Below are positions 1,428 through 10,560 of a DNA stretch of 64,000 bases, in pieces. Origin of the DNA: the human T2T-CHM13v2.0 reference genome, Homo sapiens; the NCBI RefSeq assembly GCF_009914755.1, contig NC_060928.1; one strand, written 5' to 3'. The position numbers and the translations under genes are program-made. Each line of letters begins with the position of its first letter. Positions within the stretch are counted from its first letter, which is position 1. The notes below the pieces were generated by a model. It had not been told where the DNA came from. It saw only the letters and a list, made by a program, of their open reading frames with translations, and ran no database searches.

Positions 1428-1502
1428 CTCTCTGAGATTTTCTTGGCTTCTTAGATTAGGTTGAATGAACAACAATGTCTTCAGCTTTTCAAAATCTTTG
1501 CT
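1428..1502 (-). pseudogene. Putative CNBD-like gene/pseudogene, exon 3 (SKDFEKLKTLLFIQPNLRSQENLRE)
   Basis: Acceptor cactttgttttatag, donor GAG|GTTAAA (weak). 75 nt, phase 0 to 0, open. K-x8-P-x-x-R-[ST] motif as recalled ahead of the cNMP domain in CNBD2-type proteins. Confidence 0.6.
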
Positions 1503-2132
1503 CTATAAAACAAAGTGTATTTACATTGAATGCATCTCACTTGTCCCATGGACACAACTTCTTCTAAAAACTTGGAAAGGATTTATTGCCTGTGGAACAT
1601 GAGGTGTTATGTTTAATTTTGCACATACATTTTGTTGAAATGACTTTAGGAAACAGATTTACTTAAAACAATTGAAGCACCAAGCACGGAATTCACTGGT
1701 CATGTTATAGATAGACAAGTTTAATTATAACTAAGACAATAGGCCCATTATAATAAATTGAGAGTTGTTTGCATAATGAAATGCTATTTCTTGAGTTATG
1801 ATTATGATTTACCCTATGAATATAGCTTAATTTCAGATCAACTAAGTCAAATAGGGTTCACATTCACCAAACAGATTTCATGTACCTATAAAAAAGGGTC
1901 AATAGTAGTCATTTTCTTTTTATCTAGGGAATTCAGTTTGAAAATTTGTATTACCAACTAAGGGCTATGACATAAGGTGAAACACAACTCAGTTCAGTTG
2001 TGTTTATTTATCCCAATTATGCATTATCTTTTACTATTTATTCCAGGTCTTCAGTATCAACATAAAAATTATTTCCATGCTATATCTTGCTACTCTTCAC
2101 ATCACATATGTGATGATAAAAATCTGAATACA

Positions 2133-2430
2133 GGCCAGACATGGTGGCTCACACCTGTAATCCCAGCACTTTGGGAGGCCAAGGTGGATGGATTACCTGA
2201 GGTCAGGAGTTCAAGACCAGCCTGGCCAACATGGTGAAACCCTGCCTCTAAAAAAATACAAAAATTAGCCTGGCATGGTGGTGGGTACCTGTAATCCCAG
2301 CTACTCAGGAGGCTGTAGTGGGAGAATCACTTGAACCCAGGAAATGGAGGTTGCAGTGAGCTGAAATTACACCATTGCACGCCTGCCTGGACAACAGATA
2401 GAGACTCCATCTCAAAAGAATAAAAATAAA
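2133..2430 (+). mobile_element. AluS
   Basis: Dimeric Alu with A tail and TSD aaaaatctgaataca. Confidence 0.95.
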
Positions 2431-2685
2431 TTTTAAAAATCTGAATACAGATCTAAGATACTCCCTGACCTATTCTGATAACTGTTTGTTCTTAATAGTA
2501 AAAGTAATAATAATAATTTATTGAGCGTTTAGTATGTCAGACACTATTCCAAGCACTTTATATGTATTAATTAACTCATGAAGGCAGTTTCCATTTTCTG
2601 GTTTCCTGTATAAGAAAAAAAACTCTCCTGGTTATTTAATATTTCTATGAATGACATACAGGCAATTTTCTGACTTGATCCTTCT

Positions 2686-2894
2686 TTTTTTTGTAGCTAT
2701 TTGTAAAAAGGGAATGAAGGACAGCAGTACCATATAGCCTATCAAAAAAATATAGCAAAGATGACACAACGCGTAATCCTATACAGCTTGCCTACACAGG
2801 GAATTATCAATACATCATAAAGTGTGAAGCAAATTAACACTCCCATCATAGCTGGAATTGTTCTAATAGGATCTAATACCATTCGCATGAGCTC
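2686..2894 (-). pseudogene. Possible decayed SFT2D-like (Got1/Sft2 family) retrocopy fragment
   Basis: Translates as ELMRMVLDPIRTIPAMMGVLICFTL...VIFAIFF**AIWYC, then after a frameshift LSFIPFLQIATKK. Resembles the recalled SFT2D2 C-terminus (QLKRMFEPTRLIATIMVLLCFAL...WYSLSFIPFARDAVKK). Confidence 0.35.
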
Positions 2895-3839
2895 ATGAAA
2901 AATGAAATTTTACCTAGTCTAATCCTAATGAGTCCAATCTACTCAAATGAATGCCAGCAAGCAGCAGAAAATTATTATTGATGTAATAAATAGCAATGTG
3001 CCTGTACCAAATAAAAATAACAGAGGAAAGTAAATTGTTTTATTTGATGTCAGTATATTCCCCAAATACATATATCAAGGAATTTAACTATATTAAGCAT
3101 AATCAACTGAAATTTTCAGAATTAAGTTTTAATCTGTGATGGAATGCACATATATAAGCTTGCATTATTTTAACATTAAGTGTGTTAAATTTCAAACTAG
3201 TCTACAAAAACATGTAACTACGAAAATAGCCAATACATTCATGTGCATAGGAAAAAATGGAGGAAAATATACCAAAATGTTAAAATTAATCATCTGTCAT
3301 TTAGGAAATAGAATTTTTTAGCCATTTTTATTTTGTTCTCGATAACCTTTCTATAATATCCAAGTTTCCTACACTAAACCTGTATTACTTTTACTTAAAA
3401 TTTTTAAAAATAGCTACAATTTTTTCTGATTTATAAAAATAATACATTTACATTTCAAACGTGAAAATTTGTTGAAATTCTACCAACCATAATCACTGTT
3501 AGATTGTGATGCATTCTAGATCTCTCTGATTTTCTGTGTCTTTGTCTGTGTGTGTGTCTATAGAGTGGGAGAGATGGAGAAAGGGAGATGTTTATATATG
3601 TATATGTATGTTAGCATGAATATATATTCACACACACACATATATATATACATCTGTACAAATATAGAAACATAATTTTATAGAAATAAAATTATACTAT
3701 TCTGTTTTGTAGCCTGATTTTTTTTCCTCAATGGTATATTGATTTTTCCCATGTGTATATTGTTATTTCTAATAGCTGCATCTTATTCCATTACATGATA
3801 CATCAAAATATATTTAACCCAGTCACTGCTCAGCATCCA

Positions 3840-7782: not shown

Positions 7783-8188
7783 TTGTCTTAGGTCAGGTTT
7801 CATAGAAGCAGCGCCTGAGAGGAGAATTCTTGTGCAAGTGATTCGAGGCTCTTGAGTGAGAACTCCCAGGAAGTGCCACAAGCAGGACAGGAAATGAAAG
7901 CAGCCAGGCAAAGATGCAGGGCCAGCTGCAGTCCAGCCCCAGCCTGATCCCACAGGGAGCAGGGGAAAAATGACTCACACCACAAAGGTGTTCCCTATAA
8001 GGCAGCAAGATTGGCTCTATGTACCCCCTGGTCAGTCATCCTTTAGCTATTGACCACACCTGAAAGTCTTGAGGTGTAACCTCCTGGGCATCTCCCAGCA
8101 GGCAGCTTCCATCAGCAAGGACAATTCTTGAGACAGGGTGCAGCTGTGAGCTGTTGGCAACCTATGCTCGTAGCACCTGGAAAATGGG
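7783..8188 (-). mobile_element. ERVL LTR16-like fragment
   Basis: tgtcttaggtcagg...agaagcag..cctgaga...ttcttgtgcaagtgatt terminus. Confidence 0.5.
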
Positions 8189-8607
8189 GATATGATTTGT
8201 CCTCACTAAACTCATGTTGAAATTTGATCCCCAGTGTGACAGTGTTAGGAGGTGAGGCCTAGTAGGAGGTGATTGGATCATGAAGTTGGATCCCTAAGAA
8301 TGGCTTGCTGCCCTTCTTGTGGTAGTGAGGAAGTGCTCACTCTGCCAAGGCTGTATTAGTTTTCGCAAGAATGGATTAGTTCTTGACAGAGTGGGTTGTT
8401 ATAAAGGCAGGACGTCCCTCGTGTTTTGTCTCTGTTTGCATTTGTCCACTGCCCCTTTGACCTTCTCTGCCATGTTATGATGCAGCATGAAAGCCCTCAC
8501 CAGAAGCCAGGGCCATGCCTTTGAACTGTGAGCAAAGTAAACCTCTTTCTTCATAAATTACCCAGTCTCAGGTATTCTGTTATAGCAACATAAAATGGAC
8601 TAAGACA
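8189..8607 (+). mobile_element. MST-type MaLR LTR
   Basis: actcatgttgaaatttgatcccca ... ggtattctgttatagcaaca...ggactaagaca. Confidence 0.8.
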
Positions 8608-9046
8608 TCATATAATCTTAGAAAAGTTACTTAACTCTGTATTTCAGTTTCCTCATCTGTAAAATGGGGCTTATGAGAGCAGCTGCTTCATATGCTTGCC
8701 AAAACTAAATAAAATAACAAAGCACTCAGAATAGTACTTTATATTAAACTGTATATGCAATTTACTTAAAGTTATGCATAGCACATAATGATCAATAACT
8801 GTTATAAATTTTATTGTTGTTGCTGTTATCCTGTCCTCAGGGATGCCCGCACCAGGTGTCTTGTTGCTCAAGTGCTATCCAGGTGGTTTATACATCTGGA
8901 CACCCAGGAGTGAAATTTTTTGTCTCAATATTGAACTTAAGGGTAATCTAAAGACTCCACATCTAGGTGACTGCCTAAATAGATATATGCACATATCCAT
9001 TTAATCTGACATTTCTCCAGCTCAAAATCAAACAAGTGTAGAGCCA

Positions 9047-9180
9047 GGCCAGGTGGCTCATGCCTGTAATTCCAGCAACATGAGAGGACTGCTTGAGCCC
9101 AGCAGTTAGAGGCTGCAGTGAGCTATGATTGCACCGTTGTACTTGGCTCTATCTCTTAAAAAAAATAAAAATAAAAAATA
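9047..9180 (+). mobile_element. Alu monomer/deleted Alu fragment
   Basis: ggccaggtggctcatgcctgtaat...gcagtgagctatgattgcacc followed by an A tail. Confidence 0.75.
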
Positions 9181-9589
9181 TTTAAACAGGGGTAGCCTTT
9201 TGTCTGTTTCTCTTTAAAGAGTGGGATAGGTGCTATTTCATCATTGGCTGCTTTTTTACTTATGTGAAGACCCTCAATAGGCAGATTCTTCTTCTAGTCT
9301 GTGGTAGGAAAAACAAAGAAAAATAAAACCCCCTCTTTCCTAAGCCTCCAGACCCCAATCATGAAACCAGAGTTTCCCTCAGGCAACAATGTCCCCACAA
9401 AGTTATACCCAAGTATAATTTTGCACAAAGTTATACTTGAAGCAACACTTCAAATCAAAGTCCCAGCGGCCAATTCTCTAATTCTTGCACCCTCCAGAGG
9501 CAAATATGAAAAACTTCAGACGCTTCCTCCAGTTCTTTTAGTTTGGGGAAACAAACTGGCATCTCTGACCCACACCTGACTAGAGAAGG

Positions 9590-10560
9590 TGGGATGGGTC
9601 AGTGGCGAGTGGGCACGGCTCTCGGGAGAGGGAAGGCAGCGATTCCAGGAGTCGGGGTCGCCTCGCTGCGATGGCAGGTTCAGCTTCGGTTCACTAATCG
9701 CAACCAGCCCCACCGCGGGAGACGGGGAGAGCCCTGGCTGCTGCAGGCCGGCACCTGGGTAGATGTTACCTTTTCCCGCACAGGGTCAGTCCACAGACGT
9801 GCACCAGCACCCCGGCGACCGGTCACAGCCTTCCCCTCGCCCCGGGCGGGCGCGGCCTCAGGGAGCCCTCAGGGCTTGGGGCCAGGACCATGGCCATCCA
9901 CGCGCTTCGGCCTCGCACTCCCCGGGTATGCTGCGGGCCCTCTCCATCCGGGGAGGCGGGGTCCGGGGAGGACACATCCCCGGCCCGGCCTCTCCGAGAG
10001 ACCCTTTGGATTTTTCTCTTCCACACCGCCTCATCCGAGGGGAGCCCCCCACCCCACACCCCGCAGTGATCTGGGGATGGGGAAGAGGGACGGGCGCTAG
10101 CGGTGGCGCTCCAGCTGGAACCGATCATGCCTATGTGGAGGTGGGGGATTTGAACTTTTATTTTATATGAAATTAATAAGGATAAACTGAGGAGGTAGAA
10201 TATAACATCTTCTTTCATTCTTAAAAGAATGCATGGCTTTTAAATAAACGTAGCGGGACAAGAGAGACCCTAGGGGTAGCGTTGCCTTGGGTGCAAGTTT
10301 GAGAAGCGGCTATTAGGTACACAGGTGCTTCTTTCTAAATTCAAGTTACTGAAGCTAGACCCCGCGGCGCGCTCTGCGTCTGGGTCTAGGACACGCCTTC
10401 TAGCTGCGATCCACGTTGACCCCGCACAAGCCGAGGTGCGAAGGAGGATCGCAGACCTTCGCCCGGGTTAAACTCCTTTACCGAGAGACCGTGTAACCTG
10501 CATCTGGGCCCTCCTGGAGAAAACGGAGAGGCCTGGTGCATAAAAAGCCATTTGCAGAAC
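9590..10560. promoter_or_regulatory. CpG island, probable promoter/first exon of a minus-strand transcript
   Basis: High GC, dense CpG, GC boxes (gggcggg near 9844, ggaggcgggg near 9952), not repeat-derived. Minus-strand donor AAG|GTAACA at 9770/9769. Confidence 0.8.
9770..9891 (-). pseudogene. Putative CNBD-like gene/pseudogene, coding exon 1 (MVLAPSPEGSLRPRPPGARGRL*PVAGVLVHVCGLTLCGKR)
   Basis: GCCATGG Kozak at 9891, in-frame TGA at 9825-9823, phase-2 donor AAG|GTAACA matching exon 2. Confidence 0.55.

What the first reader, a model, noticed from the sequence alone, without database searches (positions are those of the whole stretch)
1428..9897. Hidden spliced minus-strand gene from the CpG island: CNBD2-like protein, probable unitary pseudogene
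Seen: three non-repeat segments with GT-AG sites and compatible phases. They are 9891-9770 (GCCATGG start, donor AAG|GTAACA, phase 2), 4586-4475 (phase 2 to 0) and 1502-1428 (phase 0 to 0). They splice to MVLAPSPEGSLRPRPPGARGRL*PVAGVLVHVCGLTLCGKR|YTEKSHTEEWALFYLNMKNHSVNGPLFSMNNFSKYNL|SKDFEKLKTLLFIQPNLRSQENLRE, with no terminal stop, so the frame should continue leftwards. Recalled knowledge: the spacing F-x4-F-x9/10-K-x8-P-x-x-R-[ST] matches the segment just before the first cNMP-binding domain of CNBD2 (TFDTMDF...PKAIQIMQKKPSWRTEDEI). Inference: this is an uncharacterised cyclic-nucleotide-binding-domain gene, oriented divergently from EXOC1L, that is intact in other vertebrates and damaged here.
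Basis: partly seen in the sequence, partly recalled or inferred. Interest (0 to 1): 0.88.

Follow-up and report, generated by a model that had tools for sequence, protein, structure and literature searches.

The report
Disabled human CNBD2-like gene, unannotated
The three small segments are the first three exons of a 13-exon, 109-kb human remnant of an old vertebrate cyclic-nucleotide-sensor gene that is still predicted intact in squirrels, rabbits, bats, marsupials, reptiles, amphibians and sharks but carries an early stop codon and other damage in this human genome.

Summary
The segments 9891-9770, 4586-4475 and 1502-1428 (minus strand) match exons 1-3 of predicted 'CNBD2-like' proteins of squirrel, marmot and rabbit. 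Ten further collinear exons lie left of the window. The locus runs from window 9897 to about -98917, roughly 109 kb, between NMU and EXOC1L. A genome-wide Pfam scan found the predicted cNMP-binding exon 17 kb left of the window.

The human copy has three kinds of damage:
- a TGA at codon 25, where 13 of 15 orthologs have Arg;
- a frameshifted and shortened 5' part of exon 12;
- Leu in place of the phosphate-binding-cassette Arg, which is present in 14 of 14 orthologs.

All other exons are open and all donors are GT. The promoter CpG island persists.

The family is an old paralog of CNBD2/CRIS, about 24% identical to it, and forms a separate clade. It folds as a tandem cyclic-nucleotide-binding module like the PKA-R and PKG regulatory regions. 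No primate or mouse protein of this family was found (with as control). RefSeq lists no gene here, and six literature searches found nothing. The best reading is an unannotated unitary pseudogene. Residual function or polymorphism is not excluded.

The parts
9500..10600 (.). CpG island around exon 1, the presumed promoter. It is the only CpG island in the 64-kb window.
   Evidence: 9560-10130 has GC 0.68, 44 CpG and o/e 0.66. Only the 500-bp windows starting at 9401-9901 pass GC>=0.55 and o/e>=0.6. One search gives GC 0.705 for 9601-10000.
9770..9897 (-). Exon 1: ATG at 9897 (second ATG at 9891), 128 nt, ends in phase 2, donor AAG|GTAACA. It aligns to ortholog residues 1-41.
   Evidence: (E 1.1e-6 to squirrel).
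9823..9825 (-). In-frame TGA at codon 25. In that alignment column 13 of 15 orthologs have Arg (Spea has His, Rhinatrema has Cys).
4475..4586 (-). Exon 2, 112 nt, phase 2 to 0. It contains Met60, the first ATG after the stop, and that ATG is in frame.
   Evidence: E 2.7e-12; genome-wide E 2.1e-9.
1428..1502 (-). Exon 3, 75 nt, phase 0 to 0, weak donor GAG|GTTAAA. It encodes the helix that leads into the first CNB domain.
   Evidence: (E 5.4e-8).
1..1427 (-). Start of intron 3. The gene leaves the window here, and exons 4-13 lie to the left. Window place = C4 coordinate minus 59272000.
- E4: C4:59260711-59260799 (-11289..-11201), 89 nt.
- E5: 59254724-59254883 (-17276..-17117), 160 nt; beta-roll of the first cNMP-binding domain.
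- E6: 59252033-59252116 (-19967..-19884), 84 nt; phosphate-binding cassette, with Leu where 14 of 14 orthologs have Arg.
- E7: 59233401-59233465 (-38599..-38535), 65 nt.
- E8: 59214487-59214564 (-57513..-57436), 78 nt; weak donor GTTATA.
- E9: 59209592-59209652 (-62408..-62348), 61 nt.
- E10: 59209143-59209287 (-62857..-62713), 145 nt; one in-frame codon deleted.
- E11: 59208769-59208845 (-63231..-63155), 77 nt.
- E12, damaged 5' part: 59175092-59175134 (-96908..-96866); 43 nt against about 60 nt in orthologs, frameshifted.
- E12, intact 3' part: 59175044-59175091 (-96956..-96909), 48 nt; preceded by an in-frame internal AG, donor GTAAAA.
- E13: 59173083-59173316 (-98917..-98684); ends in TAA.
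   Evidence: PF00027 on E5: 24.1 bits, genome-wide E 0.077.. (E5 is 81-83% identical to 3 mammal proteins). (HSP E-values for E4-E13: 3.1e-8, 3.8e-22, 4.3e-6, 8.7e-5, 1.8e-8, 7.7e-4, 9.1e-13, 2.5e-6, 2.9e-5, 6.7e-22). (boundaries, phases, splice sites). (exon 12 damage). (cassette Arg).

Best explanation
The three segments are exons 1-3 of the human ortholog of an uncharacterised vertebrate gene that automated annotation names 'CNBD2-like'. The locus has 13 exons on the minus strand. It runs from the CpG island at window 9500-10600 to about 99 kb left of the window, in the NMU-EXOC1L gap where RefSeq lists no gene.

Where the gene is intact it encodes a soluble protein of about 450-500 aa:
- N-terminal helices;
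- a canonical cyclic-nucleotide-binding domain with a Gly-Glu...Arg phosphate-binding cassette;
- a second, degenerate CNB domain split by a disordered Ser/Thr-rich insert;
- a long C-terminal helix.

This is a tandem-CNB module like the regulatory parts of PKA-R and PKG. By inference from its paralog CRIS/CNBD2, it acts as a cAMP (or cGMP) receptor without an enzymatic domain.

In this human genome the gene is disabled:
- codon 25 is TGA, probably from CGA by a CpG transition (inferred);
- the cassette Arg is Leu, and the equivalent R288Q change abolishes the cAMP response of CRIS;
- the first ~60 nt of exon 12, which encode a core strand of the second domain, are frameshifted and shortened.

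It is therefore best read as an unannotated unitary pseudogene that keeps its intron-exon structure. It may still be transcribed from its preserved CpG island (inferred, not shown).
For: Orthology:
- 13 collinear minus-strand tblastn HSPs, E 7.7e-4 to 3.8e-22, cover residues 1-357 and 378-469 of the 469-aa squirrel protein. The reversed-query control had 0 of 25 HSPs at E<=1e-3.
- In a whole-genome search with the squirrel protein, 12 of 32 matches at E<=1 fall in this locus, including the 8 best. None falls at CNBD2 on chromosome 20.
- The conceptual human protein nests inside the eutherian CNBD2-like clade (SH-aLRT 99) and is 72% identical to marmot.

Gene structure:
- Exons 1-11 join to 1074 nt in frame with a single stop. 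All 12 donors are GT and all acceptors AG.

Domain:
- PF00027 hits exon 5. Orthologs score 64.5-85.7 bits against a cut-off of 27.5.
- The AF2 model has pLDDT 75.2. The top Foldseek hits are tandem CNB-A/B of PKG I beta (E 4.5e-18) and PKA RI alpha. The PDB profile search hits PKG, Epac2 and PKA-R.

Damage:
- TGA where 13 of 15 orthologs have Arg.
- The PBC Arg is present in 14 of 14 orthologs and is Leu in human. It is nearly invariant across the 42 sequences of alignment A1.
- Exon 12 needs a frameshift in 4 of 4 frameshift-aware alignments.
- The 20-aa segment was not found anywhere in intron 11. Below the hit to the intact 3' part of exon 12, the best matches in the visible part of the output had E about 0.3 (the middle of that output was cut).

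Absence of an annotated gene:
- The hub's RefSeq table lists nothing here.
- 0 of 3 and 0 of 40 family proteins are from primates, while the same kind of search with a CNBD2 exon returned human, gorilla, orang-utan, macaque and other primate proteins.

CRIS function and the R288Q result come from passages of PMC3854790.
Against: - The damage is light for an old pseudogene: one stop, one damaged 60-nt stretch, no lost GT donor.
- The human end branch is 0.19, equal to the sciurid stem plus tip, about 0.19.
- Human has 5 unique changes at 69 columns invariant in 13 other species. Sciurids, marsupials and a turtle each have 5 of 69 too. Protein divergence therefore shows no clear relaxation.
- With the internal acceptor of exon 12 the whole 1353-nt model is in frame. 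The first ATG after the stop is in frame at codon 60, leaving a 392-codon ORF.
- A Miniopterus isoform model lacks exactly the same 20 residues, so the short exon 12 could be a natural splice form.
- The CpG island has not decayed.
- I could not examine RNA, population variation, or any other primate genome.
Confidence: 0.84

Rival explanations
1. The human locus is still a working protein-coding gene. Translation reinitiates at Met60 after the 24-codon leader ORF, and exon 12 is spliced at its internal acceptor. The product would be a 392-aa protein that lacks the N-terminal helix and one strand of the second CNB domain.
For:: the 13-exon model with short exon 12 is 1353 nt, in frame, with a single stop at codon 25. 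The first downstream ATG is in frame, with A at -3, and opens 392 codons; all donors GT and all acceptors AG; a Miniopterus isoform model lacks the same 20 residues; no excess protein divergence on the human branch; the CpG island is preserved.
Against: The phosphate-binding-cassette Arg, present in 14 of 14 orthologs, is Leu, and the neighbouring Thr, invariant in the 13 full-length orthologs compared, is Ile. The equivalent Arg change abolishes the cAMP response of CRIS. The missing 20 residues form a confidently modelled strand of the second domain. RefSeq models no gene here, and no primate protein of the family is in the databases searched (with as control).
Confidence: 0.08
2. The exon-1 TGA is a segregating or CHM13-private loss-of-function allele, and other humans carry an open exon 1. 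That would make this a polymorphic pseudogene rather than a fixed loss.
For: The stop is a single base change at a likely CpG site. There are few other lesions. Only one human genome was available.
Against: The exon-12 damage and the Arg-to-Leu change are independent lesions in the same haplotype. No human or other primate protein of this family exists in the databases searched, although human CNBD2 isoforms do.
Confidence: 0.06
3. The segments are chance open frames, or exons of a long non-coding RNA that never coded for protein.
For: The three ORFs alone give no Pfam family above its cut-off. Exon 1 has a stop.
Against: Thirteen collinear exon matches to intact orthologs at 50-88% identity with E down to 1e-22, with boundaries at AG/GT sites and consistent phases. 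The reversed control was empty.
Confidence: 0.01

Closest known systems
[quoted passage not shown]
   Same: The overall layout is the same: a helix with the P-x-x-R-[ST] motif, then a CNB domain with a Gly-Glu...Arg cassette, then a second CNB-like region with a long insert, then a C-terminal helical part. The two proteins align collinearly over 411 columns. Neither has an enzymatic or channel domain. [quoted passage not shown]
   Different: Identity is only 24%. The two form separate, fully supported clades divided by a long branch. Marmota (M. marmota and M. monax), Lepus europaeus, Molossus, Miniopterus and Rhinolophus have proteins of both families. The squirrel protein does not hit the human CNBD2 locus at E<=1. 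CNBD2 is intact in human; this gene is not.
Regulatory tandem CNB-A/CNB-B modules of PKA R subunits and PKG
   Same: These are the best structural matches over both domains: 4z07 at 4.5e-18 and 1rgs at 9.1e-17, with 316-362 aligned columns. They are also the best sequence-profile matches.
   Different: Identity is 11-17%. There is no kinase, dimerisation/docking or inhibitor segment. The second domain lacks a cassette Arg and carries a disordered insert of about 60 residues.
Human unitary pseudogenes (a single-copy gene lost in one lineage, leaving a remnant that keeps its introns)
   Same: The locus is single in the genome. It keeps 13 exons with introns, carries disabling lesions, and has predicted intact orthologs in other mammals.
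   Different: It is not in the RefSeq table supplied. It is unusually well preserved, with one stop, one damaged segment, and the CpG island retained.

Membership tests
Vertebrate 'CNBD2-like' orthologous group (predicted proteins P0001-P0036) | Full-length collinear similarity, and placement inside the clade on a tree | tested here: met
   13 collinear HSPs. The conceptual human protein lies inside the eutherian clade (SH-aLRT 99) and is 72% identical to marmot over 446 columns.
Vertebrate 'CNBD2-like' orthologous group (predicted proteins P0001-P0036) | Best and only locus in the human genome | tested here: met
   the 8 best matches, and 12 of 32 at E<=1, fall in this locus. The other 20 have E>=0.015 and 20-33% identity.
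Vertebrate 'CNBD2-like' orthologous group (predicted proteins P0001-P0036) | Conserved synteny (between NMU and EXOC1L/EXOC1) in species with the intact gene | not testable with these tools
   No non-human eukaryote genome is held. Only the human position was placed: the NMU exon lies at C4:59088658-59088711.
CNBD2 / CRIS orthologs | Groups with CNBD2 proteins on a tree, and matches the CNBD2 locus reciprocally | tested here: not met
   Separate clades, each with support 100. Identity is 24%. There is no hit on chromosome 20. Five genera carry both genes.
Pfam cNMP_binding (PF00027) domain proteins | Profile match above the curated cut-off | tested here: inconclusive
   Human exon 5 alone scores 24.1 bits against a cut-off of 27.5, covering profile positions 3-57 of 89. 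The domain is split over exons 4-7, and the joined human sequence was not submitted. Orthologs score 64.5-85.7 bits.
Pfam cNMP_binding (PF00027) domain proteins | Phosphate-binding cassette with a conserved Arg that contacts the cyclic phosphate | tested here: not met
   Human has Leu. 14 of 14 orthologs have Arg. So the orthologs meet this feature and the human remnant does not.
Unitary pseudogene | Keeps its intron-exon structure (not a processed copy), with no functional copy elsewhere in the genome | tested here: met
Unitary pseudogene | Lesions that break the ORF | tested here: met
   TGA at codon 25. A frameshift in the 5' part of exon 12 in 4 of 4 alignments. Caveat: an in-frame internal acceptor and a downstream in-frame ATG exist.
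Unitary pseudogene | Lesions fixed in the species, and no protein product | not testable with these tools
   Only one human assembly was available, with no RNA, Ribo-seq or population data.

The most novel reading that the evidence does not exclude
Vertebrates have a second, unstudied CRIS-like soluble cyclic-nucleotide receptor, a tandem-CNB protein kept from sharks to squirrels, rabbits and bats. No annotated protein of it was found in primates or murid rodents, the two groups in which cAMP signalling is mostly studied, which would explain why it was overlooked. The human locus is so lightly damaged that inactivation may be recent: the CpG island and all donors are intact, and a 392-codon in-frame ORF runs from Met60. 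The locus may still yield a truncated protein that cannot bind cyclic nucleotide, or a regulated transcript.
Probability: 0.1. Interest if true: 0.75.

Novelty: new member of a known kind. Interest (0 to 1): 0.6.

Why it matters
It fills an apparently empty stretch of about 150 kb on human 4q12 with a real, datable gene remnant. It also adds a family to the short list of vertebrate cyclic-nucleotide receptor types, and that family has no literature in the library searched. Its paralog CRIS is needed for normal spermiogenesis in mice. A second such receptor, kept in some mammals and lost in humans, bears on lineage differences in cAMP control of sperm or cilia. It offers a natural loss-of-function comparison, and it is a candidate for correcting human annotation. 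The case also shows that exon-level reading of raw sequence can recover an unannotated unitary pseudogene.

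Tried and rejected
- Pfam on the three ORFs and neighbouring minus-strand ORFs gave nothing above any cut-off; the best was a DAD-family match at E 0.014, taken as noise.
- Rfam over 1-16000 found only the annotated U6 pseudogene.
- I took representative P0053 (577 aa) for CNBD2 because of its length. It gave no human match at E<=0.01, so it is not a mammalian CNBD2. 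CNBD2-clade representatives were instead identified through the human chromosome-20 exons and named proteins.
- I searched intron 11 (33 kb) for the missing 20 residues with segments of 11 orthologs. In the visible part of the output, only the intact 3' part of exon 12 matched, and the rest was noise at E about 0.3 or worse (middle of the output cut).
- A test for faster protein change on the human branch showed none, so it gives no support for long neutral drift.
- The tree and the alignment used a first human model that carried one extra residue (Val) at the exon 12/13 junction, because I set the exon-12 end 3 nt too far. This was corrected. It does not affect placement.
- Six literature searches found nothing on this gene: 'CNBD2-like'; CNBD2L/CNBD2P/CNBD3/CNBD2P1; 'unitary pseudogene' with 'cyclic nucleotide-binding domain'; EXOC1L with NMU and pseudogene; the long product name; and CNBD2/CRIS. 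Supplementary tables of gene-loss papers were not searched and could list it.

Full report
**Observation.** The three minus-strand segments are in the sequence as described.
- 9891-9770 begins at GCCATGG and ends AAAAG|GTAACA.
- 4586-4475 lies between an AG acceptor with a T-rich tract and TTG|GTTAGT.
- 1502-1428 lies between tttatAG| and GAGAG|GTTAAA.

The phases and the translation, with an in-frame TGA at 9825-9823, are as given. A second in-frame ATG lies at 9897. On their own the ORFs give no Pfam family above its cut-off.

**The predicted downstream exon exists.** A Pfam cNMP_binding (PF00027) scan of the whole assembly gave 58 matches at E<=10. The assembly is G000, and the window is C4:59272001-59336000. 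Nearly all matches lie on chromosomes that carry known CNB-domain genes by my recall; I did not check them individually. One match lies at C4:59254709-59254885 on the minus strand, 17 kb left of the window:
- 24.1 bits, genome-wide E 0.077, profile positions 3-57, in an 84-aa open frame with no stop;
- a clean exon between ctctccAG| and GGG|GTAAAT with a typical beta-roll sequence.

The hit falls on the predicted strand a few kb downstream of exon 3, in a region where RefSeq lists no gene. A chance hit of that E-value in so small a target is very unlikely. This last step is my own inference from the E-value and the target size.

**Orthologs.** That 53-aa exon found three predicted mammal proteins at 81-83% identity (3 with E<=1 among 22 candidates):
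- 'cyclic nucleotide-binding domain-containing protein 2-like' of Sciurus carolinensis (469 aa);
- the same name in Marmota marmota (470 aa);
- a rabbit model (448 aa) that its source names CNBD2 isoform X2.

I ran tblastn of the three proteins against 214 kb (C4:59072001-59286000).
- For the squirrel protein there are 13 collinear minus-strand HSPs with E 7.7e-4 to 3.8e-22.
- They cover residues 1-357 and 378-469. Only two other HSPs appeared, at E 3.6 and 8.0.
- The reversed proteins gave 0 of 25 HSPs at E<=1e-3, best E 0.31.
- A whole-genome search with the squirrel protein puts its 8 best matches, and 12 of 32 at E<=1, in this locus. It puts none at CNBD2 on chromosome 20.

**Gene model.** There are 13 exons, from window 9897 to -98917 (C4:59281897-59173083).
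- Exons 1-11 join to 1074 nt with the frame closed and a single stop.
- All 12 donors are GT. Those of exons 3 and 8 are weak (GTTAAA, GTTATA).
- All acceptors are AG.
- The last exon ends in TAA close to the ortholog stop.
- The NMU peptide exon lies at C4:59088658-59088711 on the same strand, so the locus sits between NMU and EXOC1L.
- Exon 1 lies in the only CpG island of the window (9560-10130: GC 0.68, o/e 0.66).
- By the hub's annotation table, the island is about 26 kb from the EXOC1L start.

**Damage in the human copy.**
1. Codon 25 is TGA where 13 of 15 aligned orthologs have Arg. A CGA-to-TGA change at a CpG is the likely event, but this is inferred, because no ortholog DNA was available.
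2. The first part of exon 12 is damaged.
   - Orthologs encode 20 conserved residues before the G-L-E-E motif.
   - Human has 43 nt between the only upstream AG and that motif, against about 60 nt.
   - Frameshift-aware alignment to 4 of 4 orthologs needs one frameshift plus 3-4 codon-sized gaps there, while the following 48 nt align cleanly.
   - No other copy of the segment turned up in the 33-kb intron in the visible part of the output (middle cut).
3. In the phosphate-binding cassette (exon 6) human has Leu where 14 of 14 orthologs have Arg. That Arg is nearly invariant in the 42-sequence alignment. Human also has Ile at a Thr that is invariant in the 13 full-length orthologs compared.
4. 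In CRIS, replacing the equivalent Arg (R288Q) abolished the cAMP response (PMC3854790, passages read).

**What the gene is where it is intact.**
- Pfam finds one cNMP_binding domain in 7 of 7 orthologs tested, at 64.5-85.7 bits.
- An AlphaFold2 model of the squirrel protein from a 42-sequence alignment has mean pLDDT 75.2 and pTM 0.63. It shows:
  - N-terminal helices;
  - a first CNB domain at about residues 98-237, with pLDDT mostly above 90;
  - a second beta-sandwich at about 240-295 plus 360-425, interrupted by a disordered insert at 299-358;
  - a long C-terminal helix.
- The best Foldseek matches are tandem CNB-A/B modules of PKG I beta (4z07, E 4.5e-18) and of PKA R subunits, over 316-362 aligned columns.
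- The PDB sequence-profile search agrees, hitting PKG, Epac2 and PKA-R.
- The second domain has no cassette Arg, so I infer that only the first domain binds nucleotide.

The mechanism is inferred by analogy and not shown: a soluble cAMP or cGMP receptor that signals through a conformational change and partner binding, as proposed for CRIS.

**Relation to CNBD2.** The squirrel protein and CNBD2 (Pongo cluster) align collinearly over 411 columns at 24% identity, E 8e-26. I built a 39-row tree (IQ-TREE, quick search).
- The 16 CNBD2-like rows and the 7 CNBD2 rows each form one fully supported group, divided by a long branch.
- Unnamed representatives sit between the two groups.
- Marmota (two species), Lepus europaeus, Molossus, Miniopterus and Rhinolophus have proteins of both families.

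So this is an old paralog of CNBD2, present at least since the jawed-vertebrate ancestor, because sharks have it. It is not a CNBD2 copy.

**Distribution.** The search with the squirrel protein returned 40 proteins at E<=0.001 among 6174 candidates.
- Sciurid rodents, lagomorphs, bats and a mole are represented.
- Reindeer, zebu and minke whale appear only as partial models.
- Marsupials, turtles, a lizard, alligator, frogs, salamanders, caecilians, sharks and a skate are also represented.
- None of the 40 is from a primate or a murid rodent.

The control search with a CNBD2 exon returned 174 proteins, including human, gorilla, orang-utan, macaque, marmoset, tarsier, lemurs, mouse and rat. The gap is therefore not a gap in the database. 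It may still be a gap in annotation.

**Evidence against a long-dead pseudogene.**
- The lesions are few.
- The human end branch (0.19) equals the sciurid stem plus tip.
- Human has 5 unique changes at 69 columns that are invariant in 13 other species. Sciurids, marsupials and a turtle show the same count.
- The indels cluster in one 60-nt stretch of exon 12. The only other indel is one in-frame codon in the disordered insert.
- A Miniopterus isoform model lacks exactly those 20 residues.
- Splicing at the internal AG keeps the frame. The 1353-nt model then has only the codon-25 stop, and the first ATG after the stop is in frame at codon 60, opening 392 codons.

This pattern fits a scenario in which the 60-nt stretch left the coding sequence first and the stop came late. 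From recalled neutral rates I would guess a loss within roughly the last 10-30 million years, but that estimate is rough and untested. It also sits uneasily with the absence of any primate protein model. This tension is unresolved.

**Verdict.** The locus is the human ortholog of an uncharacterised CNBD2-like tandem-CNB gene, disabled in this genome and absent from the RefSeq table supplied. Six literature searches found nothing on the family or the pseudogene; supplements were not searched. I rate it a new member of a known kind, a unitary pseudogene of a CNB-domain protein. It carries added interest because the parent family itself is unstudied.

Noticed in passing
G000:C15:28017864-28018109 (+) and C15:30108557-30108802 (-), outside the window: Two identical, strong PF00027 matches (60.7 bits) lie in open frames of 604 and 207 aa on chromosome 15, in inverted orientation about 2 Mb apart. 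I could not assign them to a CNB-domain gene from memory. They look like a segmental-duplication pair.
   Followed up: no
window 14781-14877 (+): Rfam confirms the annotated U6 snRNA pseudogene (62.3 bits, full-length model match).
   Followed up: yes
window 35935 (EXOC1L start) compared with 9500-10600: By a simple 500-bp criterion (GC>=0.55, o/e>=0.6), the only CpG island in the 64-kb window is the one at the pseudogene's exon 1. The annotated EXOC1L start has none.
   Followed up: partly
protein P0006 (Miniopterus natalensis, isoform X2): This predicted isoform lacks exactly the 20 residues that are damaged in human exon 12. That suggests a natural alternative 3' splice site at the G-L-E-E motif.
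   Followed up: partly
proteins P0034, P0038, P0039, P0037 (reindeer, zebu, minke whale, Rhinolophus): Only short or partial models of the family (263-338 aa, 12-77% coverage) exist in these species. No model appeared for carnivores, perissodactyls, afrotherians or xenarthrans. The gene may have decayed repeatedly in placental mammals.
   Followed up: no
window 801-1290, 2100-2400 and 8940-9150: Open frames there translate to sequences that I recognise from memory as interspersed repeats (Alu-like in the last two). They lie in introns 1-3 and do not touch the exons.
   Followed up: no
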